Source: an uncultured virus (IMG/VR IMGVR_UViG_3300021185_003889) (Duplodnaviria; Heunggongvirae; Uroviricota; Caudoviricetes). From it: a stretch of 64,000 bases of DNA. The notes beneath the pieces are model-generated. The model was not told the origin of the DNA, did no database searches, and was given only the letters and a program-made list of their open reading frames with translations. The translations under genes and the position numbers were made by a program. Location: IMG/VR virus record IMGVR_UViG_3300021185_003889, one strand, 5' to 3'. Below, in pieces: positions 2,741 through 27,413 of this stretch. Numbering within the stretch: position 1 is the stretch's first letter; each line of letters starts with the position of its first letter.

Positions 2741-2888
2741 TAGTTATTCCTTTACCTAATATTAGGGGTGATTCGTCTTTATTAGACTTAATAGTGTAGT
2801 GTGAATCGAACTCTTGAATAATAAGAGGTTTATCACCGTACATATTTTTATAATTTTTTCTAACGTATGCTTCTACTTTATCAATCAT
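2733..2888 (-). CDS. Small hypothetical protein (51 aa), not in ORF track
   Basis: MIDKVEAYVRKNYKNMYGDKPLIIQEFDSHYTIKSNKDESPLILGKGITNE; TAATG coupling with the queF stop. Confidence 0.65.
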   Translation of the reverse strand: MIDKVEAYVRKNYKNMYGDKPLIIQEFDSHYTIKSNKDESPLILGKGITNE

Positions 2889-3793
2889 TACTGTCTCAAA
2901 GTTTTACGAATAGTATATTCTGGGTTAGTAAAAAATTCTGGTACTAGACTGCTGTGAGTAGCTCTGATAGGGTTAATGTCTATTCCACCTCTTCGAGTAT
3001 ATAAACAACTTACCATTAACTGCTCAGGTTCAAACCTTTCAGTTAGGTGAGCAAATATCATCTCACATATTTCTTCATGAAAGTGACTTACTGTTCTGTG
3101 ACTAACTATATATTTAGCTAATGACTCAGCAGTAGGTAATTTCTTACCTTTCATATAAATAAACACATCACCCCAATCTGGTTGATTGGTTACTCTACAA
3201 TTGGATCTAAGTAAATTAGATCTAAATTTTATTGCACCTTCTAATTCATTAACTTCTAATTGAGTAGCATCAGATTTAAAAGCAGTAAAATCTATATTAT
3301 CTAAATCTGCTATATCACCTAAGTCTTTATATTCTTCTGAGAATGATAGAGGTTCAGTTTCAAACTCCGAAGCGTAAAAACTTACAGTAGTATTAGTTTC
3401 TAATAATTCATCTAAATCTCTCTTAACTCTAGCTTCTATTCCAGAAATACAATCAGGAGCATTATCTCCTATTTCAGTCATATTAAAAGAATTTAAATAT
3501 AGTTTTATAGACTTAGATTCTACGTGATTCTCACTATCACTAGGACAAACTATCTTTAACATACCAGCTACTGGTTGTCCTTTAGTAGTAATAGCTGATA
3601 CTTCGTATGCATTCCAAGTATCTACACCTACAAATTCATCTCCGGTTAAACCGTAACCTTCTCTATTTAAAGATCTTGGTATTTTAACTAATAAGTCAGG
3701 TGCATAAGTATCTTTATAACCAGCACCACCAACAGTTCCTAAATGTTTTGAAGCAATCTCTTTTACTGCTTCGTAGTTTTTAACTTCGCTCAT
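2888..3793 (-). CDS. queF: NADPH-dependent preQ0 reductase QueF (bimodular type)
   Basis: ESKSIKLYLNSF QueF motif, SNCRVTNQPDWG catalytic Cys/Asp, FHEEICE, YTRRGGIDINP. Confidence 0.93.
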   Translation of the reverse strand: MSEVKNYEAVKEIASKHLGTVGGAGYKDTYAPDLLVKIPRSLNREGYGLTGDEFVGVDTWNAYEVSAITTKGQPVAGMLKIVCPSDSENHVESKSIKLYLNSFNMTEIGDNAPDCISGIEARVKRDLDELLETNTTVSFYASEFETEPLSFSEEYKDLGDIADLDNIDFTAFKSDATQLEVNELEGAIKFRSNLLRSNCRVTNQPDWGDVFIYMKGKKLPTAESLAKYIVSHRTVSHFHEEICEMIFAHLTERFEPEQLMVSCLYTRRGGIDINPIRATHSSLVPEFFTNPEYTIRKTLRQ

Positions 3794-4308
3794 TTAATAA
3801 AATTTAATATTTGTTCAACACGCTGTAATGGTGACCCTGTTACAGTTAGGTAGGGTTTTCTAACTCCTTCAAGAAGTAGTTGAAATTCTTTATCTATTTT
3901 TTCTCTCCAATCTTCATTAACACTACGAACTCCATCATCAACTGATGCAAACTCGATAGGAAAGTAAATATAATGAGTATATTCATTTTTAACTCTATTC
4001 CAAGTATCTTCTATGTAGCTATGAGATTCTTTACTTATCTTATCCATAAAGTTAGAATAAACAAGCAAATCAATATAACATCTATCTAAAATCATATTAC
4101 CTGGTTTAAGTAAAGCCTCTAAATGAAAGCTACTGATAGCAAGTTGAGTCTCAGAAGTACCAGCTTCATTAATAGGAAAGCCATACTTAGCTACACTACG
4201 AGTAGATTCATTAATAAACTCAAACTTAGGTAACTTACCTTTTAATAACTCAAATACAGTAGTCTTACCGGTACTACTAGCACCTACTAAAGCAATTCTT
4301 TTTATCAT
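3790..4308 (-). CDS. P-loop nucleotide kinase-like protein (AAA_28/dNMP-kinase-like)
   Basis: GASSTGKTT Walker A; ILDRCYID; DDGVR lid. Confidence 0.75.
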   Translation of the reverse strand: MIKRIALVGASSTGKTTVFELLKGKLPKFEFINESTRSVAKYGFPINEAGTSETQLAISSFHLEALLKPGNMILDRCYIDLLVYSNFMDKISKESHSYIEDTWNRVKNEYTHYIYFPIEFASVDDGVRSVNEDWREKIDKEFQLLLEGVRKPYLTVTGSPLQRVEQILNFIK

Positions 4309-4835
4309 AAAACCTTTTTAAGATAGTCAGTCCAAAGACTTAAACTTATATTTCTTAATATAAGAAAAATTTCACCAATATCCAACTTTAAATCGTTACT
4401 ATACTGAGCTTCAGATATAACCTCTCCTTCATCAACACCTTTAACTACCTTATGTAATACTGAGCCGATTGTTTTATATTTTCCTTGATAAGCTCTCATC
4501 TGTGGATCTTTACCTTTAAGTTCAGGATACTTAGTAATTAATCCAGGATGTCCATTAATAATAGTATAGTTTTTACATATACTAGGAGGCATTATTCTCA
4601 ACCAACCATGTAGAGTAACAATACTTTTATTTTCTATAACAGATTTATAGTTTTTAGGTGTAGGTTTATTAGGTAACTCTATAAAACCTTTTTCTACTAT
4701 TCTCGAATCTATAGTTCTTAAATCTTTTGATCTTTTATTTGTAACTATTTTATCAGGCCATCTACCTAAATTTTCTGATAAATCAGCAATTTCAGCACCT
4801 GTTTGACTGAAGAATGCTATCCATTTGTTAGCCAT
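4305..4835 (-). CDS. PurN-like formyltransferase, likely preQ1 formyltransferase (DpdN-like)
   Basis: LHGWLRIM, INGHPGLI, LHKVVKGVDEGEVI formyltransferase motifs; overlaps the dpdA-like gene and lies two genes from queF. Confidence 0.8.
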   Translation of the reverse strand: MANKWIAFFSQTGAEIADLSENLGRWPDKIVTNKRSKDLRTIDSRIVEKGFIELPNKPTPKNYKSVIENKSIVTLHGWLRIMPPSICKNYTIINGHPGLITKYPELKGKDPQMRAYQGKYKTIGSVLHKVVKGVDEGEVISEAQYSNDLKLDIGEIFLILRNISLSLWTDYLKKVL

Positions 4836-5614
4836 CTAAACTTTTTTATATTATTTACTACTTTATCAATATCAATCTCTTCTATTGGTACATCTATAAG
4901 TTCATGTAATTTCTGAGATTCCTTAGACCAGAGTCCTTCTCTATCATACTCTATACCTTTTAATCCGTGAACTACTGGGTTAGAAGTATCTAATGAGTAG
5001 AGCCATTTGTAATCTGCATGCTTATAAAAAGCAAACTCTTGAGGTAAACCGCAACCTAGTAAGTGATGAGGTTTATCCTTATTAATTATACCGTCTCTCT
5101 CTAAATCTCCTAGTAGCTTAACACGTCCTAGCATCCAACTAACGTACTTGTTAGGATGAGGAATAGAATCGCTATAATACGAATAATCAAACGATATGGC
5201 TATCATATCACAAGGAGATAATTCATCGATAGCTTTATAACAGTCTTTAATCTCCTGGTATGTTTTACCTTGAACTACTCCTATGCTTTTACCAGGAGAA
5301 TTTCCATAACTCTTAAACCAATCAGCCATTTGCTGCATAGTCTTTTCAGCATTTTCTAATGCATCCGGAACTATATACCAAGTAGGTTTTAATCTTTCGA
5401 CCCACAGAGCAAATCTATCAGCTTCAAAAGCTTCTTCTAACTCAAATATAGAGTTATCAAGAATAATCTCTCTACCTTTTTTAACTGCTCTTTCAAACGT
5501 ATCTCTATATCTAGGATTTTGCTCTAGTAAGTGAACTAAAGCATAATCATAATCAGTTAGTCTTTGAACTTCTTCAAATATATCTATAGGAGCTTCGTGC
5601 GCTATTTTAATCAT
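4817..5614 (-). CDS. dpdA: TGT-fold 7-deazaguanine insertion protein (DpdA3-like)
   Basis: IILDNSIFE, IVPD, GVVQG, HHLLGC, SLDTSNP: TGT/DpdA-type motifs; context with Que genes. Confidence 0.75.
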   Translation of the reverse strand: MIKIAHEAPIDIFEEVQRLTDYDYALVHLLEQNPRYRDTFERAVKKGREIILDNSIFELEEAFEADRFALWVERLKPTWYIVPDALENAEKTMQQMADWFKSYGNSPGKSIGVVQGKTYQEIKDCYKAIDELSPCDMIAISFDYSYYSDSIPHPNKYVSWMLGRVKLLGDLERDGIINKDKPHHLLGCGLPQEFAFYKHADYKWLYSLDTSNPVVHGLKGIEYDREGLWSKESQKLHELIDVPIEEIDIDKVVNNIKKFRWLTNG

Positions 5615-5789
5615 TGTTTAAAGAGTCATTTACTGATTTATTAATTTCATTTACTGAGTTAGTAATTAAGTTTATTGCATCATCTATTGATGCTACATCT
5701 ATACCTTCAGATTGAGCAGTTTGTGCTACTTCTAACGGTACATATTTTTTACCGTCTATTTCTATTACAAAGTCATCTAATTTAATCAT
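5607..5789 (-). CDS. Hypothetical protein
   Basis: 60-aa ORF overlapping both neighbours. Confidence 0.6.
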   Translation of the reverse strand: MIKLDDFVIEIDGKKYVPLEVAQTAQSEGIDVASIDDAINLITNSVNEINKSVNDSLNND

Positions 5790-6376
5790 ATACCCATGTG
5801 TTGTGAAGGTCTAGTTTTAATGATTTCATCATCACTAAAAAACTTCATTAAATCTGGTCTAAAGTAGTTAACAGACTTCATTACTTTTTTATCTCGTTTT
5901 CTATAGACAATATACCTTCTCTCCGCAACTTTTTCAAAATAACACTCCTCACCTTGCTCCTTACTTCGTACCCTGACAGTTTCCAAGGCTTCTTTTTCAG
6001 TTTCGCAAGCTTTACTAAGATTACTCGCCTGTACCTCTTGATAAGCGGGCCATATCTTATCCTTAAGGCCATGTAACATAGTACCGTTCCCAAGGGAAAC
6101 ATAAGTAATGTCACACAAAGCATCCAAAATCTCCACAATGTCGCCCCGTTCGCAAGCTTCTTTATATTCTTGGAGCTCTTCAAGGATAAAATCATAGACA
6201 AATCTCCAGTCTTTTTCTTCTGGGATGGTTGGTTCATAATTATTAGTTTTGTTGAATGTTTTGTTAAACTCTTCTACTTCATCTACAAATGGGACTGGGT
6301 CGATGGTTACTTTTCCATCTGCCTCACTCCAGTTACCAGTTTTTTCTGGGAATAGTGATAATTGTTTTCCTTTCAT
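5786..6376 (-). CDS. All-alpha NTP pyrophosphohydrolase (MazG/HisE-like superfamily)
   Basis: EELQEYKEA...EILDALCDITYV...VQASNLSK. Confidence 0.85.
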   Translation of the reverse strand: MKGKQLSLFPEKTGNWSEADGKVTIDPVPFVDEVEEFNKTFNKTNNYEPTIPEEKDWRFVYDFILEELQEYKEACERGDIVEILDALCDITYVSLGNGTMLHGLKDKIWPAYQEVQASNLSKACETEKEALETVRVRSKEQGEECYFEKVAERRYIVYRKRDKKVMKSVNYFRPDLMKFFSDDEIIKTRPSQHMGI

Positions 6377-6380
6377 AATA

Positions 6381-7100
6381 TTATATTATACCTTCTGTCA
6401 TTATTGAATATAGTAAATCTCTCGTATCTTTCCAACTTTCTACATGATAAAATTCATTACCTTTAAGTTTTTTTCTAATTGTAGCTTCTTTAACTGCATA
6501 ATCATTACCTCCAGGAACTAAGTTATCTCCAAAAAAAGTAAAATTTTCTCCATTTAAGTCATCTAGTATTTGTCCTTTATCTGCTCCTCTTTCATGTATA
6601 TCTATACTTATCTCCCCTCCTATTGATGCATCTAACCAACCATACCTTCCACAAATTTCCTCAGCAAATTGTTTTCTTTCTTGATGTATTTGGTCCCACT
6701 TATAGTATTCATTTCTTTGTTCTTGAGTACAATTTCTCCCAACAACAGAAAAATTAACTAAACCTATTCTCTTTTCTATATGATTACCAAACCTGTGTGG
6801 GTATTCAGATTTATCTAACATCATATTCAGTAACGTGTCTAAGTATTCTTCACCAGACCATTCATTTTGCTCAATCATTTTACCGCCAATCCATAGTTGG
6901 TTACCGCAGCATTGGTATACTCTATCTGCAGCCAACCAAGCATCTTCACCTAATTGCTCTACTGATTTATCTTTATCACTTCCAGTAACTAGCCAAACTT
7001 TATTGTGTTTACAAAAATTTAAGAAATCTTCTTTAAATTTAGGGTCAATAAGATTCCTGGAAGGAGTTAATGTACCGTCGATGTCAAAAATGTATATCAT
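6381..7100 (-). CDS. HAD-IIB phosphomannomutase, eukaryotic PMM-like
   Basis: FDIDGTLT, VTGSD, IEKRIGLVNFSVVGRNCTQEQR, GGEISIDI, FFGDNLVPGGNDY. Confidence 0.85.
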   Translation of the reverse strand: MIYIFDIDGTLTPSRNLIDPKFKEDFLNFCKHNKVWLVTGSDKDKSVEQLGEDAWLAADRVYQCCGNQLWIGGKMIEQNEWSGEEYLDTLLNMMLDKSEYPHRFGNHIEKRIGLVNFSVVGRNCTQEQRNEYYKWDQIHQERKQFAEEICGRYGWLDASIGGEISIDIHERGADKGQILDDLNGENFTFFGDNLVPGGNDYAVKEATIRKKLKGNEFYHVESWKDTRDLLYSIMTEGII

Positions 7101-7447
7101 ACTCTATCGTAATCGTCTTCGTATCTAATAATGTCATCTTCACCAAAATATTGTCCAGTTTGTACTTCTATAAACTCAACTAATTTATCAGTTTTATTCC
7201 AGGCCCTATGTTTTGATTGACAAGGAATCCTAATTGATTCACCTGTAGCAGCTAATGTATACTCTATATCATCTAATACTACAGTAAGAGTACCTTTGAC
7301 TAATGTCCATTGTTCTTGTCTTTTATTATGAGACTGAAGAGATAATCTTGAATTAGGAGCTATAGTTATTAACTTAACTTTGGTAGCATCTGAGTCTAAT
7401 AATACTTGGTACATTCCCCAAGGTCTAGTTTCAGCTTCGTATTTCAT
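7097..7447 (-). CDS. Mannose-6-phosphate isomerase type II cupin
   Basis: RPWG, LSLQSHNKRQEQW, HRAWN, IEVQTG..FGEDDIIRYEDDYDR. Confidence 0.9.
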   Translation of the reverse strand: MKYEAETRPWGMYQVLLDSDATKVKLITIAPNSRLSLQSHNKRQEQWTLVKGTLTVVLDDIEYTLAATGESIRIPCQSKHRAWNKTDKLVEFIEVQTGQYFGEDDIIRYEDDYDRV

Positions 7448-7907
7448 AATCAGATATTATTCTTACTTTTGCGGGCACATTTAAAAATAGACAACAATAA
7501 AATCTAGTTCTGCCATCTATAATATAGTACTTTTTTTTCAATTCTAAAAAGAAAATAGGATGATAATCATTATTTTTTACTAGTTCAAATATTTCTTTGA
7601 TACTAAAACCTCTAGTTATATCTCTAGGAAACAAAGAATCCCTTTCTTCTAAAATATTTAAAAAATTAGAAACGTCTTTTTCTTTTAAAATTCGTTCTAA
7701 AATAACTTCACAGGAATCTGTGTTAGCAAGGTTAAGAAGTTCACTATACTTTGAAGTATCAAAAGTATCTACTTTACTTTCTTTAACTAGTTTTAAAATA
7801 CTTTCCTTATTCTTATTGAAAGTAAATTTTCTAACATCTGGATGCCATTGAGAAAATAAATTACCTACATCAATGTCATCGTAGAACTCTTTACTTCTTC
7901 TCCCCAC
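7431..7907 (-). CDS. Hypothetical protein with ParB/Srx-like C-terminal motif
   Basis: HPIFF...YYIIDGRTRF; very AT-rich. Confidence 0.5.
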   Translation of the reverse strand: MGRRSKEFYDDIDVGNLFSQWHPDVRKFTFNKNKESILKLVKESKVDTFDTSKYSELLNLANTDSCEVILERILKEKDVSNFLNILEERDSLFPRDITRGFSIKEIFELVKNNDYHPIFFLELKKKYYIIDGRTRFYCCLFLNVPAKVRIISDYEIRS

Positions 7908-7912
7908 TTATA

Positions 7913-8620
7913 TTAACACTTTTCTGCTAATTCAATATTCTTATAAAACTCTGCTTTTGCTGAGTCTTCGTTTAAGAAAGCTCCAGTTAATTTAGCCGTT
8001 TGCATAGAAGCACCTCCATGCTTTACTCCTCTACATGATACACATGCATGAGTTGCATTTACTTGAACTGCTACTCCTAAATTACCTTCACATATCTTAT
8101 CTACAGCATTATGTATAGCTACAGTAAGCTGTTCCTGTATTGCACCTCTTCTACCGAATTGCTCTACTATTCTATTAAGTTTAGATAGTCCTACTACCTT
8201 ACCATCTTCAGATGCTATATAAGCAATACTTACTGTACCTCTAATAGCTTGATGATGATGAGAACACATAGACGTTACAGGTATGTTACTCTCTTGAACT
8301 ATACCGTCATAACCGTCTGATGGAAATGCTGTAATACGGTCTAGTGGACTATATCTTCCTGCCCATAAATCGTTAACGTATGCTTTTGCTACTCTAAATG
8401 GAGTATCTGCAGAATTAGGATCTTCTTTATAATTACATCCTAGAGCAGTTAAGAAGTCTCCATATGCTTTAGCAGCATTTTCTATTATAACTTGTTTTTC
8501 TTCTGAATCTAACCTTGCTTCAGGTCCTTCAGTTTGTTGTTTCTTTGCTAGTTGACTTGATATACCGTTAGCAAAACCGGCTTGAACTAATTCAGTTCCT
8601 TCTATAAACTTCTTTGGCAT
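7913..8620 (-). CDS. folE: GTP cyclohydrolase I
   Basis: TPFRVAK, SMCSHHH, VVGLSKLNRIV, IQEQLT, HACVSCRGV. Confidence 0.96.
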   Translation of the reverse strand: MPKKFIEGTELVQAGFANGISSQLAKKQQTEGPEARLDSEEKQVIIENAAKAYGDFLTALGCNYKEDPNSADTPFRVAKAYVNDLWAGRYSPLDRITAFPSDGYDGIVQESNIPVTSMCSHHHQAIRGTVSIAYIASEDGKVVGLSKLNRIVEQFGRRGAIQEQLTVAIHNAVDKICEGNLGVAVQVNATHACVSCRGVKHGGASMQTAKLTGAFLNEDSAKAEFYKNIELAEKC

Positions 8621-8655
8621 TATTAATTGTTTTTATTGAGGTTCTACGACTCATT
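8621..8655 (-). ncRNA. Candidate preQ1-I-like riboswitch aptamer in folE leader
   Basis: UGAG-UCGUAGAAC-CUCA-AUAAAAAC-AAU, close to the type II preQ1-I pattern (CUGGG-UCGCAGUAAC-CCCAG-UUAACAAAAC-AAG). Confidence 0.6.
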
Positions 8656-8658
8656 ATT

Positions 8659-8689
8659 ATAATATACGAACTTATTCTGAATCTACCAA
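8659..8689 (-). promoter_or_regulatory. Promoter upstream of folE
   Basis: TTG-N20-TATATTAT. Confidence 0.7.
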
Positions 8690-9094
8690 ATAATCTTGTT
8701 TAGATTCACTGTTTAAAGTCTCCCATGGAAAAACTAACCATCTTTCATCATTAATTAGTTCTCCTGAAAAAGTAGGTACTGTTTGTGTAGTTGACCTAAC
8801 AGCTAGAGTACCAGTTAAGAAGCCCAGTTTGTTTGCTTCTACTAAAGTATGACCTGTATCTGCAATATCATCTATTACTAAGGTATTCTCTCTTATATCT
8901 TTAGGTAATAATTTAGCTGAAGAATAACTAATGTATTTTATTCCGAATAAATGAGATGCCATTACTGCAGGTATCAAACCGCCTCTTGGTATACCAGAAA
9001 CGAATTCTAACTCTTTACTCTCTATCTGTTCTCCTATAGTATTAAGTTGTTCCTCAACCCAATTCCATGCTAAAAAATATCTTGAATTTGTCAT
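8672..9094 (-). CDS. Type I phosphoribosyltransferase (xanthine/guanine PRT-like)
   Basis: GIPRGGLIPA, LVIDDIADTGHTL (PRPP-binding), WLVFPWE. Confidence 0.88.
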   Translation of the reverse strand: MTNSRYFLAWNWVEEQLNTIGEQIESKELEFVSGIPRGGLIPAVMASHLFGIKYISYSSAKLLPKDIRENTLVIDDIADTGHTLVEANKLGFLTGTLAVRSTTQTVPTFSGELINDERWLVFPWETLNSESKQDYLVDSE

Positions 9095-9654: not shown

Positions 9655-9878
9655 TGAGTAAAGATGCTATATAAATAACCGCAAATACCTACTACATTAA
9701 GTAAGGATAGATTATAAGATTTTGTTTTCTGAGTTTGAATTGTTAGTAGTGCTAAACCTAGTACGGATAGTACTTTACCTAACGTATAATTAACGAAAAA
9801 TGGTCCAACCATCATACATCCAGTTCCGATGAATACTACAAATATCTTGTAAAGTAATTCTTTTGTTTCTTTTTTCAT
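9651..9878 (-). CDS. Small membrane protein
   Basis: 75 aa, three hydrophobic segments. Confidence 0.65.
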   Translation of the reverse strand: MKKETKELLYKIFVVFIGTGCMMVGPFFVNYTLGKVLSVLGLALLTIQTQKTKSYNLSLLNVVGICGYLYSIFTQ

Positions 9879-10687
9879 TCGAATATTTCATTTATTAATT
9901 TACCTAATCTTACTCCTGCATAATATAACCGTTTTTCTAATACCGGTTGATATTTGTAAACATAATCGTATGATAGATATGAACCATCTGGTGTATTCTT
10001 GTAGATATCTCTAGCCCACCAGTGTGATTCGAAAGTCCATTCTAACACATCACTCTGTTTTACTTCTTTTCTTCTGTATTTATTCTGTAAATGAGTACTC
10101 CACTCAGTGTACGACATTTTAAAATCATCTATTAAGTTAGTATCCCATAGAACATGTAAGTTCGTTCTATTATCTGATCCTTTTCTACCTTTAAATGTAA
10201 TGTAAATTTTTGAACCACCATAATCTTCGTATCTACCTGTATGCATTGGTTGATGAATATCACCTACTAAATGAACTAAATACTTAAGATAGAATTTTTT
10301 CATTTCTTTATCTGAAGAAGGTGATTTAAGTATAGCAACACATCTTTCGATTATAGTCACTACATTTTCTTCGGGTACATCAGCATCTGGGTATTCTACG
10401 TCTAAAGGTAGGTTTACGTAGTGCCATTTATCATAAGGTCTCCAATTAGGGTTACTTCTCATCTCATCAGCCCAAGTACTTACTGATGCTAACGATTCTC
10501 CGTCTAGTATATCGTATACAACTTTTTTTACTTCTTCGGTCAGTTGTCTTTCGGCAATTTCTCCTACTATTCTGTGTCCTGTCTTTCCCCAATCATTTGC
10601 AAACAATGATGTTGCTGCTCCTAATAAAAGTAACAATAATAAAATCGGAAATAGGTAAACCTTTAGTATATTATATAACGCTTTCAT
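9875..10687 (-). CDS. Secreted S1/P1 nuclease
   Basis: Signal peptide then WGKTGH, WADEMR, WHYVN, HLVGDIHQPMH, NLHVLWD. Confidence 0.93.
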   Translation of the reverse strand: MKALYNILKVYLFPILLLLLLLGAATSLFANDWGKTGHRIVGEIAERQLTEEVKKVVYDILDGESLASVSTWADEMRSNPNWRPYDKWHYVNLPLDVEYPDADVPEENVVTIIERCVAILKSPSSDKEMKKFYLKYLVHLVGDIHQPMHTGRYEDYGGSKIYITFKGRKGSDNRTNLHVLWDTNLIDDFKMSYTEWSTHLQNKYRRKEVKQSDVLEWTFESHWWARDIYKNTPDGSYLSYDYVYKYQPVLEKRLYYAGVRLGKLINEIFE

Positions 10688-10701
10688 ATTGTAAATATAA
10701 G

Positions 10702-10729
10702 AAAAAAAAAGGGAGCTAAAAAGCTCCCC
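10702..10729 (-). terminator. Intrinsic terminator after TBDR
   Basis: GGGAGC-TTTTTA-GCTCCC followed by T9. Confidence 0.85.
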
Positions 10730-10745
10730 TTAATTTATTTTTGAA

Positions 10746-13220
10746 TTAAAATTTGTATTTCAACGAAACATTCCAAGTACGGCCAAATCCAAACCATACT
10801 GAGTTTCTAACATCAATACCATTCCAAGTAACATTACCTGGTTCTGCATGAATATTACTATTAGACTCAGCTATATATGTTGTGTCTAATAAGTTATTTA
10901 CATTCGCTCTTAATGACCATCCATTAGCAGCATAAAAAGTAGCCCCTAAGTCAACTAAACCGTAAGAAGGTAGTTTTAACGCACCATCATTATCAGGGTT
11001 AGTAAATGCTGAATCTGTAATAGAATAATCAGCATATAATCCATCTACGAATCTATAATCAATATCAAATTTTATATTGTTACCTAAAGATTGATCTAAT
11101 CCTAAAACGGCAACAAATTGAGCAGCATCTCCTACTTTAGCACCTTTTGTGTAAAGTTTACCAGTACCAATTGATTGCTGGTTTTCATCGAATAATTCTG
11201 CCTCGAAGTCTTTAGTATAAGTCCAATCACCAATAGATAACATACCTCTTAGTTTAGTTGAACCTATTCTATAAGTACCTTCTGCTTCAATACCTTTATG
11301 AGTTACATCAATATTTCTAAATTGAGCAAATCCATCAACTCCTTGCTGATTAGATAAACTTCTAGAAACAAATCTGTTACCCCAGTTGGTATTATACGCA
11401 TTAATATTGAATTTTAACTTTTTACCAATATATCCGTAACCAATCTCTAAAGATTCGATTCTTTCATTCTGTAAGTCCGGGTTTATATCGTTTCCATAGT
11501 TAGGAAATACAGCATCAAATAAAGGCTGACGATCAATATATCCAGCGTTAACAAAAATGTTAGACTTACTACTAAAGTTATAGTTTATACCCCCTTTTAG
11601 GTAGCCACCACCTAAGTTAGCTTTATCTGAAAGTGGATTGTCTGTATTGTTAAATCTATCTTCTCTTTGAAACTGTTGGTTTGAAGCACCTGCTTGTAAA
11701 ACTGCTGTAATTTTATCTCCAGCATATTCTACTAAACCATTAACACCAGCCCATTTTACAAAACCAATGTTAAAATAATCAATTTTTGCTTCGTCATCAC
11801 CTATATTAGTACCTCTGAATGGTTTTGCAACAATTGCATCATCCATACTATATAGTTGAGTTCCTAAGTTATCATTACCTGTAGAAGCATACTGTCCTAA
11901 ACCTAATAAGTCATTGACGGCTCTGTAATGGTATCCAGTATAGTTCCTTAGATCTACTCCTAATGAGTATCTCATTTTACCTTTCTGAATGTTTAATTTA
12001 GAAATAGCTCCAACCCAGTTATGGGAGTTCATAGAAGCTCTTCTCATTAATACATTACGAGCATAGTCGCTATCGTTATTAGATCCTACAGGGTATTGTG
12101 AGTTATGAGTTACTACTGCATCATAGTTAATGAAGCCGTTTGCATCTCTTGTTCCTCTACCATTTTCTAGGTAATGCTCAGTTAAATCTTTTCTGTATGG
12201 TAACATATCGATAGATCCTTCGTAGTAGCTTCTACCTCTTGGACCTGTACCTCCACCTCTACCGGCAGAACCGTATAAAGAAGTGTTTAATTGTACATTA
12301 TCAGATATATCCCAATCCCAGTTAAGAGTAGCTAAAGGCTTGTTGTAGAAGTTTCTACGTAAGTTGTACTCTTCACCATTTAATGTTCCACCGTTAGTGT
12401 TCCATCTTCTGTCGATTCCGTCTTCTCCAAAGTTTTGGTAATCTCTAATTGATACCCAAACATCTCTTTGGTGGTGCCATTGACCGGCTCCTAAAACAGA
12501 AAGGTTCAGACTATGCGCTGAACCCTCTGGTGTATATCCTACGGCTGCAAAATAAGTCCAGCCTGCTCCCGATGTATTATAAATGTATCCATTTCCTGAC
12601 CATTTAGTTAATAAATAAGAAGATGACCAGCCTTTATCATTTACTCCAGTATTATATACTGCAGTAGTTTTAATATAGCCATCATTTCCTACCATCTGAG
12701 TTAAGGATCCACCTTGAGCTTTTTCAGCACTTTTAGTGAAAATAGAAACAGTTCCACCTACTGAGGGAACTGCTAATGAAGTGGCACCTAGTCCACGTTG
12801 GATCTGGATTCCAGAAGTAACGTCAGTTAATCCTTGCCAGTTACTCCAATAAACCCAACCATTTTCCATATCATTGACCGGTTGACCGTTGATAAGAAAA
12901 GATGTATTACGTTGATCAAATCCTCTTAAAGAAATACGGCTATCACCATATCCTCCTCCTTGTTTTGTAGCGTATACACCGGGTGTCTTGTTCATGACTT
13001 CTGGGAATTCCAAATTCCCTGTCTTCAAGAGTACATCACTTCCAGCAATAGTACTAACAGCGATTGGTGTCTCCCTTTCTTTGGCGACATCAATTACTCT
13101 TGAGGACACTACTACTTCTTCCAAGTTAACATCTAGAATTGTCTTGGAGTCTGTACTCGATTCTTGTGCAAAAGCACTTACCGCTAATAACATCAGCAGT
13201 ACGGTAACGAGATTTCTCAT
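10746..13220 (-). CDS. TonB-dependent outer-membrane receptor (plug + beta-barrel)
   Basis: Signal peptide, LEEVVV TonB-box-like, plug ISLRGF...LINGQPVND, C-terminal GRTWNVSLKYKF. Confidence 0.93.
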   Translation of the reverse strand: MRNLVTVLLMLLAVSAFAQESSTDSKTILDVNLEEVVVSSRVIDVAKERETPIAVSTIAGSDVLLKTGNLEFPEVMNKTPGVYATKQGGGYGDSRISLRGFDQRNTSFLINGQPVNDMENGWVYWSNWQGLTDVTSGIQIQRGLGATSLAVPSVGGTVSIFTKSAEKAQGGSLTQMVGNDGYIKTTAVYNTGVNDKGWSSSYLLTKWSGNGYIYNTSGAGWTYFAAVGYTPEGSAHSLNLSVLGAGQWHHQRDVWVSIRDYQNFGEDGIDRRWNTNGGTLNGEEYNLRRNFYNKPLATLNWDWDISDNVQLNTSLYGSAGRGGGTGPRGRSYYEGSIDMLPYRKDLTEHYLENGRGTRDANGFINYDAVVTHNSQYPVGSNNDSDYARNVLMRRASMNSHNWVGAISKLNIQKGKMRYSLGVDLRNYTGYHYRAVNDLLGLGQYASTGNDNLGTQLYSMDDAIVAKPFRGTNIGDDEAKIDYFNIGFVKWAGVNGLVEYAGDKITAVLQAGASNQQFQREDRFNNTDNPLSDKANLGGGYLKGGINYNFSSKSNIFVNAGYIDRQPLFDAVFPNYGNDINPDLQNERIESLEIGYGYIGKKLKFNINAYNTNWGNRFVSRSLSNQQGVDGFAQFRNIDVTHKGIEAEGTYRIGSTKLRGMLSIGDWTYTKDFEAELFDENQQSIGTGKLYTKGAKVGDAAQFVAVLGLDQSLGNNIKFDIDYRFVDGLYADYSITDSAFTNPDNDGALKLPSYGLVDLGATFYAANGWSLRANVNNLLDTTYIAESNSNIHAEPGNVTWNGIDVRNSVWFGFGRTWNVSLKYKF

Positions 13221-13264
13221 TAAATTGATTTAAAATTAAACATTAATATAACCTACTTCATCGA

Positions 13265-15692: not shown

Positions 15693-16398
15693 ATATTTCT
15701 ACTCTTATGTCTTTCATCATCTCAAAACCTCTCTCTGCTAGATGATCTCTTCCTTCCCTTATCATTCTATCCCAACCACAATAGTATACCAGAGGCTTGT
15801 GATCTGACTTGTCGATAAGGTCTAAATAATGCTTGTGTACATAGCCTTCAGCTATGCCTGGCACTTTTTCTCTACTTAATGTAGGTATGTACTCAAAGCC
15901 TGGAAGACAGTGCTGTATAAACTCTAATTCTTTTCTATACACTATATCTTCTTCTTTTCTAGTACCAAAAAATAACTTAATATTTTTAAATTCTTTTTTA
16001 CTATTAAAAATGTCATTAATCATAGATCTGAAAGGGCTTATTCCTGATCCTGTAGAAACCATATAGATATCTCTTTCCATAAGGTTGTCCGGAAGAGTAA
16101 ATACTCCCATAGGTCCTCTGTATACGAATTCATCACCTAATTTAGCATGATTAAATAAATAATCACACATATTACCGCCAACTAAATTAGTTATGATAAG
16201 TTCAAATCTAGGGGTACCGTCCTGCCAAGAAGCTACTGAATAATTTCTTATTACAGAGTCTGGTTGACCAGGTTTAGCACATAACTGTACTAACATTCCT
16301 GATTCCATATTTATCTGGTTTGCTAAAGGATCTTCAAATATAAATCTCCAGTTTGCTTCAGTTTCTTTTATTATATCTACTAGTACTGCTACGTTCAT
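15685..16398 (-). CDS. FAD/NAD(P)H oxidoreductase (ferredoxin-NADP reductase family)
   Basis: RNYSVAS, GPMGVF, TGSGISPFRSM, YYCG, terminal EIFG. Confidence 0.9.
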   Translation of the reverse strand: MNVAVLVDIIKETEANWRFIFEDPLANQINMESGMLVQLCAKPGQPDSVIRNYSVASWQDGTPRFELIITNLVGGNMCDYLFNHAKLGDEFVYRGPMGVFTLPDNLMERDIYMVSTGSGISPFRSMINDIFNSKKEFKNIKLFFGTRKEEDIVYRKELEFIQHCLPGFEYIPTLSREKVPGIAEGYVHKHYLDLIDKSDHKPLVYYCGWDRMIREGRDHLAERGFEMMKDIRVEIFG

Positions 16399-17177
16399 TA
16401 AACTTCTCTTTGGTCTTCGAAGGCTATAATATGAGGCCTCCAGGTTAAACGGTATCCATTATCACGAACCCAATCGAACATAACAGGATAAGATTTTTGT
16501 AATGCCTCTCTAGTATCTCCAGCTGGCATAAACCATACTTTGTCTTTAGGAGCATCTAACTGATCAATACAGTCCATAATCTCCTCTAATGCTCCTTCAT
16601 CTTTACCATCCCAAACAGGTTTTAGGTGATAATCACCATGGTATGCTATACTCTCTTTTATTGCAGGATAATTAAGTCTAAACTTATTATGCTGTTTGAT
16701 CATTCTTTCATCCGTAATCTTGCCTTCAGGCGTCTCAACACCGAGTACCGGAACCGAATTGCTGAACTTCGGACTGATTGAAAGTAAATTAATAGGGTAA
16801 TCAGTAGGTAAAAAATGACTCCCCTCATTCTCCATAGTAATGAAGATATTCCTTTCATTTGCTAGATGTGTTAGTTCGTTTACTAGTTTTTTATGCATAG
16901 TAGGACTTCCTCCTGTTAACATCATTTCTGATATATGAGGATTATCATCGTATGCTTTAATAATATCGTTAAAAGTATATTTACCTTTTTCAGGATGTAT
17001 AGAAGTATACCAACTATCACACCAACCTCCTTCACCGAAATAGCATCTATGAGTACATCCTGTAGTTCTAATTACCACGGTAGGGTATCCTGCTCTTGAT
17101 CCCTCAGATTGAACAGCAGTATAGATTTCTACAATAGGTAAATTTTTATCGTAATCTTCTACTCTACCTAGGCTCAT
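16398..17177 (-). CDS. queE: 7-carboxy-7-deazaguanine synthase (radical SAM)
   Basis: EIYTAVQSEG, RTTGCTHRC...WCDS, LTGGSP, ISPK. Confidence 0.92.
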   Translation of the reverse strand: MSLGRVEDYDKNLPIVEIYTAVQSEGSRAGYPTVVIRTTGCTHRCYFGEGGWCDSWYTSIHPEKGKYTFNDIIKAYDDNPHISEMMLTGGSPTMHKKLVNELTHLANERNIFITMENEGSHFLPTDYPINLLSISPKFSNSVPVLGVETPEGKITDERMIKQHNKFRLNYPAIKESIAYHGDYHLKPVWDGKDEGALEEIMDCIDQLDAPKDKVWFMPAGDTREALQKSYPVMFDWVRDNGYRLTWRPHIIAFEDQREV

Positions 17178-17631
17178 ATATTGCGCTATTTTTACCGTGT
17201 TCTCTAAATTCTACCTTAATTACCTTTACTCTACCTTCAGTTTCTTCCTCTATAAAAGGATTTAACTTGTCATAAACGAATTGAGCAAATCTTTCTGCAC
17301 CTGTTGCAGGTACTACTCTTACTTGAGCTACTCCTGCATCATCCATCTTTTTGAAAGATTCTAGGAAAGGATCATCTTCAGCTACTATAAAAGTATGATC
17401 AAACATATAATCCATCCATGCTTTAGGAGTCATACCGTCAATTTTACCTTTTGCTCTTTTCATTCCTCCAAAGTCCCAAACCCAATTTCTTTCATCTAAT
17501 TCTCCTTCAAACCATAGTTTAAAAGATATACCATACCCATGTAAAAATCTACAATGAGTAGTTTCTGCTTTCCATTGACGAAATACTGTAGAGAATCCGT
17601 CAAATACCTTAGTTGATGTGTATTTTCCCAT
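17164..17631 (-). CDS. queD: 6-carboxytetrahydropterin synthase
   Basis: HCRFLHGY, WVWDFGGMK, FDHT, TGAE, VEFREHGKNSA. Confidence 0.92.
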   Translation of the reverse strand: MGKYTSTKVFDGFSTVFRQWKAETTHCRFLHGYGISFKLWFEGELDERNWVWDFGGMKRAKGKIDGMTPKAWMDYMFDHTFIVAEDDPFLESFKKMDDAGVAQVRVVPATGAERFAQFVYDKLNPFIEEETEGRVKVIKVEFREHGKNSAIYEPR

Positions 17632-17903
17632 TATACTAGTTCTTCGATTATACCTACTATTTCTGATAAGATAAGAAGAATAGCTGAGACTACCAAATTA
17701 AATGGTATAAAACAGTATCCTAAAATTCTGATACCTGATTTAATGAAAGAAACTATTTGATGCTTTCTAGCATCTGGATAGTTTAATGGTTTTGAGGGTG
17801 TAAGTTTGTTTTGATGTATACGGTTTACTAAGTATTGCTCTTCCGTCATTCTGCGAGACTCCACATCATAGAGATCTTTCTCGACTTCTTTTAATTCTAC
17901 CAT
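17631..17903 (-). CDS. Small membrane protein leading the queD-queE unit
   Basis: C-terminal hydrophobic helices; TAATG coupling to queD. Confidence 0.65.
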   Translation of the reverse strand: MVELKEVEKDLYDVESRRMTEEQYLVNRIHQNKLTPSKPLNYPDARKHQIVSFIKSGIRILGYCFIPFNLVVSAILLILSEIVGIIEELV

Positions 17904-17940
17904 TTTTAGTGTTTTTATAGTTGTGTTACGACACTATAGT
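17904..17940 (-). ncRNA. Second preQ1-I-like aptamer candidate (possibly degenerate or variant)
   Basis: AUAGUG-UCGUAACAC-AACUAU-AAAAAC-ACU; same 9-nt loop and A5C tail as the folE element. Confidence 0.45.
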
Positions 17941-26196: not shown

Positions 26197-26219
26197 AATT
26201 ACGTATTTAATAAACGTAG

Positions 26220-26292
26220 TGGCGGGGATAGGACTCGAACCTATGACCTCCGGGTTATGAGCCCGGCGAGCTACCTGCTGCTCCACCCCGCA
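26220..26292 (-). tRNA. Initiator tRNA-fMet (CAU)
   Basis: TGCGGGGTGGAGCAGCAGGTAGCTCGCCGGGCTCATAACCCGGAGGTCATAGGTTCGAGTCCTATCCCCGCCA; 1:72 mismatch, A11:U24, three G-C pairs in anticodon stem; CCA not encoded. Confidence 0.96.
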
Positions 26293-26296: not shown

Positions 26297-26629
26297 TTAA
26301 TATCCTATTCTATAAAAAAGCCAAGCCGATACAGAGTTAGGTTTAGTAATAACTAATACATCATTTCTTTCATAGTAACTCAGAACATATTCATCATCTA
26401 TATCTGTCCTTTTAATGTATAGTTTACCACCATCTTCTCTTAATATACCTTTAGCCATGACCTTTTTATTGTCAATTCTAATAAATGAACCATCATTACC
26501 GATGTTAACAAATTCATTATCAAAACTTTGCCATTTACCTATAACATCCTTAGGTAAGTTATCCATATCTTTGAAATCCTGGGACTGTAAAGATATAGTA
26601 GTTAGTAAAAGTAAAAATAATTTACGCAT
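26297..26629 (-). CDS. Secreted hypothetical protein
   Basis: Signal peptide MRKLFLLLLTTISLQSQ; IGKW beta-rich domain. Confidence 0.7.
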   Translation of the reverse strand: MRKLFLLLLTTISLQSQDFKDMDNLPKDVIGKWQSFDNEFVNIGNDGSFIRIDNKKVMAKGILREDGGKLYIKRTDIDDEYVLSYYERNDVLVITKPNSVSAWLFYRIGY

Positions 26630-27413
26630 ATTGAGCTAATAATTTTTCTACATGTGCTTTCGCAACATCATATTCAACCTCTCCAGTTTCATCCTCATAT
26701 TGTACAGGGTCATCCACACCCAAGTTGATGAATGCTTCAATCCTTTCAACAGATGATGCTGATTTATAGTCACTATTACCGCTAGGATAGGGCTTATAAG
26801 ATGTATTAGTACGTTTGTATACATCATTAAAAGTAACTCCGAGCTCTTCAACCAATTTCTGTCCATCTTTTAAGATTCCAAGTTTATCTGTATCTAAGTA
26901 AGGAGTAAAATATCCTACTTTTTCTGCTTCCCAGTTACCTATTCTAAAGGCAGCATCGTCAGCATCTCTAAACTCTTGTCTGCAGTCAGGATAGATTGCA
27001 TGATCACCAGCATGAATACCTAATGCGATATCTGTATCGTTTCCATTAGAATTAGCTTCTGATAGAGCAACTGCTTGTACTAAAGAAGCAAATATCTTGT
27101 TTCTATTAGGTACTACTGTAGCTTTCATGTTATCTTCTTCATAATGACCTTCCGGTACATCATCTCCTCCTGTTACTAATGCTGAGTTTAGTAAATTAAC
27201 GAGTCCGTCAAGTTTAATAACTTGATACTTAATACTCTGACCATTAGCGTTTAAATAATCAACTAATGATTGAGCTCTTTCTAGTTCTACTCTATGCTTT
27301 TGACCGTAATCAAAAGATATTGCAGTAACATTGTCATACTCTGATAAACATCTGAGTAGTAAAGTTGAGGAGTCCATCCCTCCTGAAAGACTAATTACAA
27401 CATTTTTTGCCAT
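26622..27413 (-). CDS. queC: 7-cyano-7-deazaguanine synthase
   Basis: SLSGGMDSST, FDYGQKH, VPNRN, YPDCR. Confidence 0.95.
   Translation of the reverse strand: MAKNVVISLSGGMDSSTLLLRCLSEYDNVTAISFDYGQKHRVELERAQSLVDYLNANGQSIKYQVIKLDGLVNLLNSALVTGGDDVPEGHYEEDNMKATVVPNRNKIFASLVQAVALSEANSNGNDTDIALGIHAGDHAIYPDCRQEFRDADDAAFRIGNWEAEKVGYFTPYLDTDKLGILKDGQKLVEELGVTFNDVYKRTNTSYKPYPSGNSDYKSASSVERIEAFINLGVDDPVQYEDETGEVEYDVAKAHVEKLLAQYA

What the first reader, a model, noticed from the sequence alone, without database searches (positions are those of the whole stretch)
8621..8655. folE leader closely matches a type II preQ1-I aptamer
Seen: the promoter -7 box ends at 8659, so the predicted 5' UTR is about AAUGAG UCGUAGAAC CUCA AUAAAAAC AAUUAAUA AUG. 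Compared from memory with the T. tengcongensis aptamer (CUGGG UCGCAGUAAC CCCAG UUAACAAAAC AAG), it keeps the G-C pair closing P1, loop U-C-G, the specificity C before P1', the A-tract and the G11-C30-type pair. P1 is only 4 bp and one loop nucleotide is missing. FolE is the first, GTP-consuming step, a logical feedback point.
Basis: partly seen in the sequence, partly recalled or inferred. Interest (0 to 1): 0.85.

Follow-up and report, generated by a model that had tools for sequence, protein, structure and literature searches.

The report
Compact phage preQ1-type riboswitch candidate
The 35 bases in front of the folE gene of this marine phage form a tiny conserved RNA hairpin-plus-A-tail that looks like a stripped-down preQ1 riboswitch. 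It recurs before several 7-deazaguanine synthesis genes in many related phages, so it probably lets the phage throttle production of the modified base that replaces G in its DNA.

Summary
The sequence is as described. On the minus strand it reads UGAG (8653-8650), loop UCGUAGAAC (8649-8641), CUCA (8640-8637), AUAAAAAC (8636-8629), then 8 nt to the folE AUG (8620).

The window is a phage. All ORFs lie on one strand, and it encodes FolE, QueD, QueE, QueC, QueF, a DpdA, a DpdN-like formyltransferase and replication genes.

Rfam's PreQ1 model (RF00522, cut-off 39 bits) does not hit the leader even at E<=10. Comparative evidence is strong nonetheless:
- The motif lies upstream of folE in 57 of 80 related viral loci.
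- The 4-bp stem is paired in 99% of cells, and three of its four pairs show compensatory changes.
- The loop and the A-tract-C-A tail are nearly invariant.
- The same element precedes FolE, non-homologous FolE2, QueD, QueE and a small unknown protein in at least 140 viral stretches, always 5-13 nt before the AUG. In one case it fills a 36-nt queD-queE gap.

Every position that the literature gives as contacting preQ1 in type II preQ1-I aptamers is conserved. A sequence with the identical loop, a longer stem and an SD lies before a Vut_1 transporter gene and does hit RF00522 weakly.

Verdict: a phage-specific, SD-less, minimal preQ1-I-like riboswitch variant acting on translation (about 0.7). 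Ligand binding is untested.

The parts
8684..8689 (-). promoter-like upstream box TTGGTA
   Evidence: TTGGTA-17-TATATT, 9 of 12 matches to the sigma-70-type consensus. A TTG-containing box about 17-20 nt before a TATATT-like box recurs in relatives. No transcript start was shown.
   Evidence: A (T)TATATT box is seen 5-20 nt before P1 in most relatives' leaders. It is absent where the element sits between queD and queE.
8650..8653 (-). P1 5' strand UGAG
   Evidence: Covariation with 8637-8640: 99.1% of 228 cells paired. Pair types: AU 27 / UA 16 / GC 12; GC 56 / AU 1; UA 37 / AU 20; GC 57.
8641..8649 (-). 9-nt loop UCGUAGAAC. By position these correspond to: U 8649 = the U after P1 (U6-like), C 8648 (C7-like), G 8644 (G11-like), AC 8642-8641 (specificity C preceded by A)
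   Evidence: In 80 distinct instances: U 80, C 78, G 78, A 80, G 80, A 80, C 80 at loop positions 1, 2, 3, 5, 6, 8, 9. Roles are assigned by analogy with PMC11625349 and are not tested.
8637..8640 (-). P1 3' strand CUCA
   Evidence: see P1 5' strand.
8630..8636 (-). A-rich linker AUAAAAA (L3-like). It lies at -16..-10 relative to the AUG
   Evidence: Linker length is 7 nt in 64 of 80 distinct instances, range 5-10. It coincides with the A-enriched zone -10..-14 of this phage's start sites.
8628..8629 (-). conserved C-A. The C is the proposed partner of loop G 8644 (single P2-like pair). This is the 3' edge of conservation
   Evidence: C is fixed by the search regex (not an independent count); A after it in 80 of 80. 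No Watson-Crick extension: loop position 4 with C+2 pairs in only 31%.
8621..8627 (-). variable spacer before the start codon, no SD-like sequence
   Evidence: The gap between the conserved C and the AUG is 5-13 nt in the 136 of 140 viral instances that have a downstream ORF.
7913..8620 (-). folE (GTP cyclohydrolase I), the regulated gene
   Evidence: PF01227 E 4e-41. NCBIfam FolE models are the top hits, below their curated cut-offs.
17908..17938 (-). second, degenerate copy of the element (AGUG UCGUAACAC AACU AUAAAAAC). The otherwise invariant loop G is A (17926), and the C of the closing pair is A (17922)
   Evidence: Model R1 gives 26.9 bits, E 0.005, with filters off. Sequence. This exact variant is not found elsewhere in viral contigs.
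17631..17903 (-). small unknown protein (90 aa, PDARKHQIVSFIKSGIR motif plus hydrophobic C-terminus), first gene before queD and queE
   Evidence: Its relatives carry the intact element in 63 of 140 viral instances. 1738 homologues, none named, no Pfam, PHROG or NCBIfam hit.
17164..17631 (-). queD
   Evidence: PF01242; TIGR03367 is the top hit.
16398..17177 (-). queE
   Evidence: Radical SAM. The five best NCBIfam hits are all QueE models, below their cut-offs.
26622..27413 (-). queC
   Evidence: PF06508 E 3e-39.
2888..3793 (-). queF (makes preQ1 from preQ0)
   Evidence: PF14819 and PF14489.
4817..5614 (-). DpdA-type DNA guanine transglycosylase
   Evidence: 69% identical over 265 aa to the annotated DpdA of Flavobacterium phage immuto (annotation).
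4305..4835 (-). DpdN-like formyltransferase
   Evidence: PF00551. 53% identical to the immuto formyltransferase, which PMC10516641 names DpdN.

Best explanation
The folE leader is a minimal, phage-specific variant of the class I (type II-like) preQ1 riboswitch. The RNA forms a 4-bp stem with a 9-nt loop. When free preQ1 (possibly also preQ0) accumulates, it would be held between the closing G-C pair of the stem and a loop-G:tail-C pair. It would pair with the loop's last C, and the A-tract would dock along the stem. That folds the 26 nt that end about 8 nt before the AUG into a compact pseudoknot. These phages and their Bacteroidota-type hosts do not use Shine-Dalgarno sequences and rely on an open, A-rich stretch upstream of the AUG. 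Locking up exactly that A-tract would therefore block 30S loading and switch off translation of FolE, the GTP-consuming first step. The same switch sits before folE2, queD, queE and a small unknown gene in related phages. The purpose would be to match precursor synthesis to the demand of the DpdA enzyme that replaces G in phage DNA. SHOWN: conservation, stem covariation, gene association, position next to the AUG, lack of SD. INFERRED: the pseudoknot, the ligand, the OFF direction and the translational mechanism.
For: (1) Conservation. The core is identical between the window and Flavobacterium phage immuto except for a U-A to G-C swap at the base of the stem, while folE DNA is only 73% identical. 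57 of 80 viral loci whose FolE is 70-94% identical have the motif upstream.
(2) Covariation. On 57 distinct sequences 99.1% of cells pair and 3 of 4 pairs change on both sides. 0 of 500 shuffles reach the observed score, and slid registers give 29-60% paired. One further instance adds G-C at the third pair (L254).
(3) Gene association. Families were confirmed for representatives. FolE and FolE2 are non-homologous enzymes for the same step.
(4) The element is not a promoter part. In L132 it fills the 36-nt gap between the queD stop and the queE start.
(5) The gap between the tail C and the AUG is 5-13 nt in all 136 instances with an ORF, and there is no terminator-like site.
(6) Pocket positions named in PMC11625349 (U after P1, C, loop G with tail C, AC before the 3' strand, G-C closing pair, A-rich L3) are 78-80 of 80 conserved.
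(7) Bridge sequence. L254 has the identical loop, a 5-bp stem, an AAGGAG box and a Vut_1 (PF02592) transporter gene. It is hit by RF00522 at 24.5 bits and by my model at 26.1 bits.
(8) QueF is present in 10 of 10 large records bearing the motif or its loop variant, and in the window. Phage phiST, whose DNA carries dDG rather than a preQ1 derivative (PMC10516641, Table 1 passage), has a 15-nt queE-folE gap and no match above 14 bits.
(9) SD-like 4-mers occur before 3 of 66 window ORFs against 14.6% of random 17-mers, and A reaches 0.53-0.58 at -10..-14. Bacteroidetes lack SD and tune initiation by mRNA structure (PMC6847099, abstract read).
Against: Rfam's curated PreQ1 model does not report the leader. 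There is nothing at the gathering score, nothing at E<=10 in 301 nt or in 71 nt, and nothing at the folE leader of five related phage records. By my rough scaling this means under about 10 bits against a cut-off of 39.
The stem has 4 bp rather than 5 and the loop 9 nt rather than 12.
The second helix of the pseudoknot is reduced to one invariant G:C pair, which cannot show covariation. Possible extensions pair in only 31% of instances.
The hairpin alone is no more stable than shuffled sequence.
No ligand binding, transcript start or regulation has been measured.
The window's own second copy (17908-17938) carries changes at two otherwise invariant positions, so the element is not indispensable everywhere.
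23 of 80 FolE loci lack the motif.
Covariation rests on few independent events: three stem positions with 2-3 pair types each.
Confidence: 0.72

Rival explanations
1. The fold and position are as above, but the ligand is a different 7-deazaguanine of the phage pathway, for example an N-formylated preQ1 base, CDG or only preQ0. The shortened loop and linker would have retuned the pocket.
For: The phages concerned end with a further-modified base. Immuto DNA is fully fdPreQ1, and it is open whether DpdN formylates free preQ1 or DNA-bound preQ1 (PMC10516641, discussion passage). The window has a DpdN-like gene. The loop is 1-3 nt shorter than in known types. Loop position 7 differs systematically: A before most folE genes, C before the small gene.
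Against: All positions said to read preQ1 are unchanged. L254, with the identical loop, sits before a Vut_1-family transporter gene in an SD-using context, where preQ1 or preQ0 is the expected signal. QueF is present in 10 of 10 records.
Confidence: 0.1
2. The hairpin-plus-tail is an operator for a phage or host RNA-binding protein, or a constitutive 5' stabiliser or translation enhancer. It would be shared by the 7-deazaguanine genes for co-ordinate timing and would not bind a metabolite.
For: Rfam's riboswitch model fails. The stem is short and weak. The second helix is not demonstrable. Phages often use protein-bound translational operators (general knowledge). Riboswitches are reported as rare in phages (PMC5473149, passage read).
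Against: The invariant positions coincide one for one with the published preQ1 pocket (PMC11625349). The same loop occurs in an RF00522-detectable element before a Vut_1 transporter gene outside this phage group. The element follows the pathway across two non-homologous cyclohydrolases. No candidate RNA-binding protein gene travels with it: the constant neighbour is a small hydrophobic protein.
Confidence: 0.12
3. It is a preQ1-sensing aptamer but acts on transcription (ligand-dependent pausing or early termination, or mRNA decay) rather than on ribosome loading.
For: PMC11625349 (section 11 read) notes that a preQ1-I pseudoknot can stabilise transcriptional pausing without any terminator hairpin, and that such switches would escape sequence searches.
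Against: No terminator-like site lies between the aptamer and the AUG. There are only 5-13 nt before the start codon. The A-tract coincides with the A-rich zone of start sites. The element also works from an intercistronic position.
Confidence: 0.05
4. Chance resemblance: an AT-rich leader that happens to look like an aptamer.
For: Within the window alone the core pattern is not significant, since 12 of 100 shuffles have a match. Folding energy is unremarkable.
Against: Conservation, compensatory changes and recurrence before five gene families in at least 140 viral stretches.
Confidence: 0.01

Closest known systems
preQ1-I riboswitch, type II (Thermoanaerobacter tengcongensis and Bacillus subtilis aptamers; part of Rfam RF00522)
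   Same: Hairpin followed by an A-rich tail. G-C pair closing P1. U directly after the 5' strand. 'AC' directly before the 3' strand. Loop G that can pair with a conserved tail C. Location before 7-deazaguanine synthesis genes. Features as listed in PMC11625349 sections 4 and 8; counts.
   Different: P1 has 4 bp rather than 5. The loop has 9 nt; Rfam's consensus has 12. L3 is mostly 7 nt. The P2 helix is reduced to one pair. No SD is buried. It is not detected by RF00522. It is found in phages and not in the cellular genomes searched.
L254 element (viral contig, before a Vut_1/PF02592 transporter gene)
   Same: Identical 9-nt loop UCGUAGAAC, AC before the 3' strand, A-rich linker ending in C-A.
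   Different: 5-bp G/C stem, 10-nt linker and an AAGGAG box 3' of the C (an SD-type platform). RF00522 scores it 24.5 bits, still under the cut-off of 39. It serves as a bridge between the canonical family and the phage form.
preQ1-I type I 'indirect occlusion' model
   Same: The review states that pseudoknot formation itself, more than SD burial, represses translation. [quoted passage not shown] The phage element fits that prediction.
   Different: Type I has UC before the 3' strand and UU after the 5' strand, and binds two ligands. The phage element has AC and a single U.
Riboswitches previously noted in phages (c-di-GMP-I in C. difficile prophages, glutamine riboswitches in cyanophages)
   Same: A metabolite-sensing RNA carried by a phage (PMC5473149, passage read).
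   Different: Those are ordinary members of cellular classes, seen in two instances each. This one is a distinct variant, abundant in one phage lineage, and tied to a phage-specific DNA-modification pathway.
THF-II riboswitch (the 'folE motif')
   Same: An RNA upstream of folE (recalled, not from a call).
   Different: A different architecture and ligand. No Rfam family other than chance hits matched the leader at E<=10.

Membership tests
preQ1-I riboswitch (Rfam RF00522) | Score at or above the curated gathering cut-off (39 bits) of the family's covariance model | tested here: not met
   No hit at gathering. No hit at E<=10 in 301 nt or 71 nt around the leader. Not among the hits in five related phage records, although the first look passed few candidates there. 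Note that L254, a canonical-looking element with the same loop, reaches only 24.5 bits, so the model under-scores short-loop forms.
preQ1-I riboswitch | P1 helix supported by covariation | tested here: met
   4 bp, 99.1% of 228 cells paired, 3 of 4 pairs with changes on both sides, 0 of 500 shuffles as high. The helix is one pair shorter than Rfam's consensus.
preQ1-I riboswitch | Conserved G-C pair closing P1 (pocket floor; the G contacts the aminomethyl group) | tested here: met
   G-C in 57 of 57 distinct rows. It was required by my wider regex, so the 80-instance set adds nothing here. The window's second copy breaks it.
preQ1-I riboswitch | U immediately 3' of the P1 5' strand (reads N9-H of the ligand) | tested here: met
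   T at loop position 1 in 57 of 57 rows of A3. This position was fixed in the search patterns, so the count is partly circular. It also holds in the loci found through FolE alone (where the regex likewise required T).
preQ1-I riboswitch, type II | Specificity cytosine preceded by A ('AC') directly before the P1 3' strand | tested here: met
   AC in all 31 rows of A2 and 57 rows of A3. Definition from PMC11625349 section 4. The AC was part of the search regex.
preQ1-I riboswitch | A-rich L3 that runs along the P1 minor groove | tested here: inconclusive
   An A-tract of at least 4 A is present in all instances, and the linker of 5-10 nt (mode 7) fits a 4-bp stem. Docking cannot be tested by sequence.
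preQ1-I riboswitch | P2 pseudoknot helix between the loop and the 3' tail | tested here: inconclusive
   The loop G and tail C are both constant, so no covariation is possible. Extensions are not supported: loop position 4 with C+2 pairs in 31%, and loop position 5 faces an invariant A. [quoted passage not shown]
preQ1-I riboswitch | Expression platform: SD burial or a terminator | tested here: not met
   No SD-like sequence in the leader. SD-like 4-mers occur before 3 of 66 ORFs of the window. No terminator-like site.
preQ1-I riboswitch | Association with queuosine / 7-deazaguanine synthesis or transport genes | tested here: met
   FolE, FolE2, QueD, QueE and a Vut_1 transporter for L254.
preQ1-I riboswitch | Selective binding of preQ1 (and preQ0) | not testable with these tools
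   Needs in-line probing, ITC or NMR.

The most novel reading that the evidence does not exclude
A fourth, phage-borne type of class I preQ1 riboswitch. At about 26 nt (4-bp stem, 9-nt loop, 7-nt A-linker, C-A) it would be smaller than any aptamer described in the papers read here. It would work without a Shine-Dalgarno sequence by sequestering the A-rich ribosome-landing zone of Bacteroidota-type mRNAs. It would govern not tRNA queuosine but the flux of GTP into the 7-deazaguanine that replaces G in phage DNA. It appears to be widespread in marine and freshwater Flavobacteriia-type phages, and it brings a 1700-member unknown small membrane-type protein into the pathway.
Probability: 0.6. Interest if true: 0.88.

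Novelty: new variant of a known kind. Interest (0 to 1): 0.8.

Why it matters
(1) Riboswitches are described as rare in phages (PMC5473149). This would be an abundant class restricted to one phage lineage, and the first regulatory element proposed for the 7-deazaguanine DNA-hypermodification pathway. The paper on these phages does not contain the words riboswitch or regulat-, and no paper in the library pairs 'riboswitch' with 'DpdA'.

(2) The 2024 review of the preQ1 family names as open challenges the finding of riboswitches in mRNAs without an SD, and predicts that they exist (PMC11625349, abstract and section 11). This element is a natural test case, and it has a cultured system: phage immuto on Flavobacterium sp. 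LMO8.

(3) It would set a new lower size limit for a natural ligand-sensing fold, which is of interest for RNA design and for understanding how little RNA a pocket needs.

(4) It shows that the curated Rfam model misses short-loop type II-like members, since even the canonical-looking L254 reaches only 24.5 bits.

(5) The shared leader points to a function in this pathway for an unnamed small protein family.

Tried and rejected
Rfam searches. cmscan of the window at gathering found only a tRNA. At E<=10 the leader region gave only chance hits: CRISPR-DR41, snoRNAs, His leader, CrcZ. RF00522 on five phage records gave 13 weak hits (8.8-18.1 bits), none at folE. The best one (L085) lies in a Y-RNA/tRNA-like region beside a Ro60-like gene.

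Host-side search. RF00522 found 0 of 151 sampled Bacteroidota genomes over the cut-off. The single 25-bit hit lies inside a feoB-like gene on the other strand. My model R1 hit 0 of 151 at E<=0.01, but only some 40-50 of thousands of first-look candidates per genome were scored, so this is weak evidence.

Exact-pattern scan of 185,579 species' genomes. It gave 5 stretches. Three have a mismatched stem and no downstream ORF (my rough expectation by chance is about 3). Two lie on one phage-like MAG contig.

Searches for more stem variants. The pattern with S at the third pair gave 1 hit (L254). The pattern with a non-G-C second pair gave 18 hits. None is credible: the four stem-complementary sequences inspected lie inside open frames, and none of the 18 precedes a pathway gene. 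The second pair therefore varies only once (L066).

P2 extension was not supported. The CM-made alignment A4 did not align the tail C any better.

Thermodynamics: no signal.

RNA evidence. Eight RNA runs hold small shares of the stretch. The four laid are contigs of relatives, give no starts or ends, and are not shown to be transcripts.

Cultured phages. Only the immuto isolates carry the leader in the phage collection; the other 49 records are A-rich chance matches.

Literature. Ten searches were run. None of those aimed at it returned a paper describing a preQ1-type riboswitch in a phage; the library lacks most subscription papers. McCown et al. 2014 was not read. Supplements of PMC10516641 were not opened.

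Full report
WHAT IS THERE. Read on the minus strand, the 51-nt gap between a phosphoribosyltransferase-like ORF (8672-9094) and folE (7913-8620; PF01227, E 4e-41) contains the following, in order:
- a promoter-like pair of boxes, TTGGTA-17 nt-TATATT (8689..8661);
- seven bases;
- UGAG (8653-8650), the loop UCGUAGAAC (8649-8641) and CUCA (8640-8637);
- AUAAAAAC (8636-8629) and A (8628);
- seven variable bases and the AUG (8620).
Taken alone the match is not remarkable. The degenerate core occurs once in the window, and 12 of 100 shuffles give at least one match. The hairpin is worth -1.5 kcal/mol, no better than shuffles (z +0.58).

The window is a phage.
- All 75 listed ORFs of 90 aa or more, bar six short overlapping ones, lie on the minus strand. 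No host genome is held for the window.
- It encodes gp32-like, DnaB-like, RecA/UvsX-like, ribonucleotide reductase and family A polymerase proteins.
- For immuto, PMC10516641 (passages read) reports complete replacement of G by the formylated preQ1 nucleoside, and names the formyltransferase DpdN.
The pathway here therefore serves DNA hypermodification, not tRNA queuosine.

THE RFAM TEST IS NEGATIVE.
- RF00522 (45 positions, cut-off 39 bits) reports nothing at the gathering score.
- It reports nothing at E<=10 in 301 nt or in 71 nt around the leader.
- It does not report the folE leader in five related phage records.
- Scaling from the 18.1-bit/E 0.14 hit, I estimate the leader scores below roughly 10 bits. 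This is my inference.
- The consensus printed shows why. Rfam's model expects a 5-bp stem, a 12-nt loop (UUCGuAAaCcUC) and a tail AUAAAAAACUAAGgA. The leader has a 4-bp stem, a 9-nt loop and no CUAAGG.

COMPARATIVE EVIDENCE IS STRONG.
- Window against immuto: folE DNA is 73% identical, yet GAGUCGUAGAACCUC-AUAAAAACAAU is identical. The one difference, at the base of the stem, is compensatory: U...A becomes G...C.
- On 57 distinct sequences the four stem pairs are AU 27/UA 16/GC 12 (2 unpaired), GC 56/AU 1, UA 37/AU 20 and GC 57. That is 99.1% of cells paired. 0 of 500 column shuffles reach the covariation score, and sliding the 3' partner by 1-3 columns gives 29-60% paired (the 31-row alignment gave the same picture).
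- The caveat is that these are few independent events at three positions.
- A prediction-driven scan for other second pairs found nothing credible: 18 hits, of which the four stem-complementary sequences inspected lie inside open frames and none precedes a pathway gene.

THE ELEMENT FOLLOWS THE PATHWAY, NOT THE GENE.
- The ORF that starts 5-13 nt after the tail C is FolE in 65, a small unknown protein in 63, QueD in 3, QueE in 3 and FolE2 in 2. Four have no ORF, being at contig ends.
- Representatives were confirmed: PF02649 for both FolE2 cases, PF01242 for QueD, and QueE models as the best NCBIfam hits. FolE and FolE2 are unrelated enzymes for the same reaction.
- Many contigs carry two copies about 2.3 kb apart.
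- In L132 the element fills the 36-nt gap between the queD stop (1194) and the queE start (1231). It is therefore not part of a promoter, and it works inside a polycistronic mRNA.
- QueF is present in 10 of 10 large records carrying the motif or its loop variant.
- Cellulophaga phage phiST, whose DNA carries dDG rather than a preQ1 derivative (PMC10516641, Table 1), has a 15-nt queE-folE gap and no match above 14 bits.

COMPARISON WITH THE KNOWN POCKET. PMC11625349 (sections 4, 8 and 11 read) lists the following for class I aptamers:
- a cytosine directly before the P1 3' strand that pairs with preQ1, preceded by A in types II and III and by U in type I;
- a U after the P1 5' strand;
- an adenine of the A-rich L3;
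- the conserved G-C pair closing P1, whose G contacts the aminomethyl group;
In 80 distinct phage instances the corresponding positions are U 80, C 78, G 80, AC 80. The A after the tail C is 80 of 80, and the tail C was fixed by the search regex. The linker is 7 nt in 64. Several of these positions were fixed in my search patterns, so those counts are partly circular. In the FolE-anchored set only the loop regex constrained them.

Possible Watson-Crick extensions of the G:C pair are not supported (31%).

A BRIDGE SEQUENCE. The scan for G/C at the third stem pair found one locus, L254. It has the identical loop UCGUAGAAC, a 5-bp stem UGGGG/CCCCA, a 10-nt linker, C-A, then AAGGAG and, 10 nt on, a gene matching Vut_1 (PF02592, E 3e-18; 113.6 bits for the full gene). 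From my own knowledge, this family includes the YhhQ queuosine-precursor transporter. RF00522 aligns L254 end to end at 24.5 bits, treating the loop as the consensus loop with three deletions. My phage model scores it 26.1 bits. So the phage loop lies within the variation of canonical-looking preQ1-I elements, and the Rfam model under-scores such short-loop forms. Its silence on the phage leader is therefore weak evidence against kinship.

HOW IT MOST LIKELY WORKS. There is no terminator-like site, and only 5-13 nt separate the element from the AUG.
- The phage does not use SD sequences. SD-like 4-mers occur before 3 of 66 ORFs against 14.6% of random 17-mers, while A rises to 0.53-0.58 at -10..-14 against a background of 0.37.
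- Bacteroidetes lack SD sequences and tune initiation by mRNA structure and upstream nucleotides (PMC6847099, abstract).
- In the folE leader the A-tract occupies -16..-10.
I therefore infer a translational OFF switch. Ligand-induced docking of the A-tract onto the stem removes the single-stranded A-rich landing zone. This matches the 'indirect occlusion' idea and the predicted SD-less riboswitches of PMC11625349 (section 11). The logic is feedback on GTP consumption, matched to what DpdA can insert. The pseudoknot, the ligand, the direction and the mechanism are all inferred.

DISTRIBUTION AND NOVELTY.
- The exact pattern occurs in only 5 stretches of 185,579 species' genomes. Three look like chance, and two lie on one phage-like MAG contig.
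- Neither RF00522 nor my model found anything in 151 sampled Bacteroidota genomes, with limited sensitivity.
- Among cultured phages only the immuto isolates carry it.
- PMC5473149 states that riboswitches are rarely found in phages: two c-di-GMP-I and two glutamine examples.
- The searches aimed at a phage preQ1 riboswitch found no description of one, and PMC10516641 does not contain the word. The library lacks most subscription papers, and I did not read McCown et al. 2014.
- I rate it a new variant of a known kind.

THE WINDOW'S SECOND COPY. With filters off, my model finds one more match in the window: 17908-17938 (minus strand), 26.9 bits, E 0.005. It lies 7 nt before the small protein gene (17631-17903) that precedes queD and queE, and sits behind a terminator-like hairpin and a TATATT box. 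It carries A in place of the invariant loop G (17926) and A in place of the C of the closing pair (17922). The exact variant occurs nowhere else in viral contigs. It is probably a decayed, constitutive version. In two other phages the small gene's leader has the loop UCACAGCAC.

VERDICT. Confidence is about 0.72 that this is a preQ1 (or preQ0)-responsive translational switch, and it needs a binding experiment.

Noticed in passing
window 17908-17938 (-): A second, degenerate copy of the element lies 7 nt before the small protein gene. The invariant loop G and the C of the closing pair are both A. The exact variant is not seen in any other viral contig.
   Followed up: partly
window 17631-17903 (-): A 90-aa protein with the motif YPDARKHQIVSFIKSGIR and a hydrophobic C-terminal half is the first gene before queD and queE. 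Its relatives carry the intact element in 63 of 140 viral instances. It has 1738 homologues, all unnamed, and no Pfam, PHROG or NCBIfam hit. It is a candidate new component of the phage 7-deazaguanine pathway.
   Followed up: partly
window 9875-13909 (-): A phage carrying a TonB-dependent receptor (824 aa, Plug plus beta-barrel), an S1/P1 nuclease with a signal-like N-terminus and a non-specific DNA/RNA endonuclease in a row. This may be a nucleotide-scavenging module expressed in the host envelope.
   Followed up: no
window 13927-16398 (-): Ferredoxin-like, peroxiredoxin, FMN-binding and FAD/NAD(P) oxidoreductase genes lie directly downstream of queE on the coding strand. They may form an electron-supply chain for the radical-SAM enzyme.
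   Followed up: no
window 5786-7907 (-) and 22886-24694, 32949-33765 (-): MazG-like pyrophosphohydrolase, eukaryotic-type phosphomannomutase, a mannose-6-phosphate-isomerase-type cupin, three cytidylyltransferase-like proteins, an APS-kinase-like protein and a second radical SAM protein. Together these suggest sugar-nucleotide metabolism of unknown purpose.
   Followed up: no
window 8652-8654 (-): In the UGAG stem variant an AUG lies inside the P1 5' strand, out of frame with folE. It is absent from the GGAG and AGUG variants, so it is probably incidental.
   Followed up: partly
window 26220-26292 (-): A tRNA gene (63 bits) overlaps the 5' end of the mechanical ORF 25369-26286, whose start is therefore probably miscalled.
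   Followed up: no
L085 1460-1543 (viral record G004): A YrlA-like/tRNA-like RNA (20.9 bits, under the cut-off) lies next to a Ro60-like (TROVE-type, by eye) gene in a large phage contig. It produced a false 18-bit PreQ1 hit.
   Followed up: partly
L254 394-436 (+): A canonical-looking preQ1-I element before a Vut_1 transporter gene scores only 24.5 bits against RF00522's cut-off of 39. The curated model therefore misses 9-nt-loop members.
   Followed up: yes
L244 and L245 around 1501-1531: A loop variant, UCACAGCAC, precedes the small protein gene in two phages whose folE leader lacks the element.
   Followed up: partly
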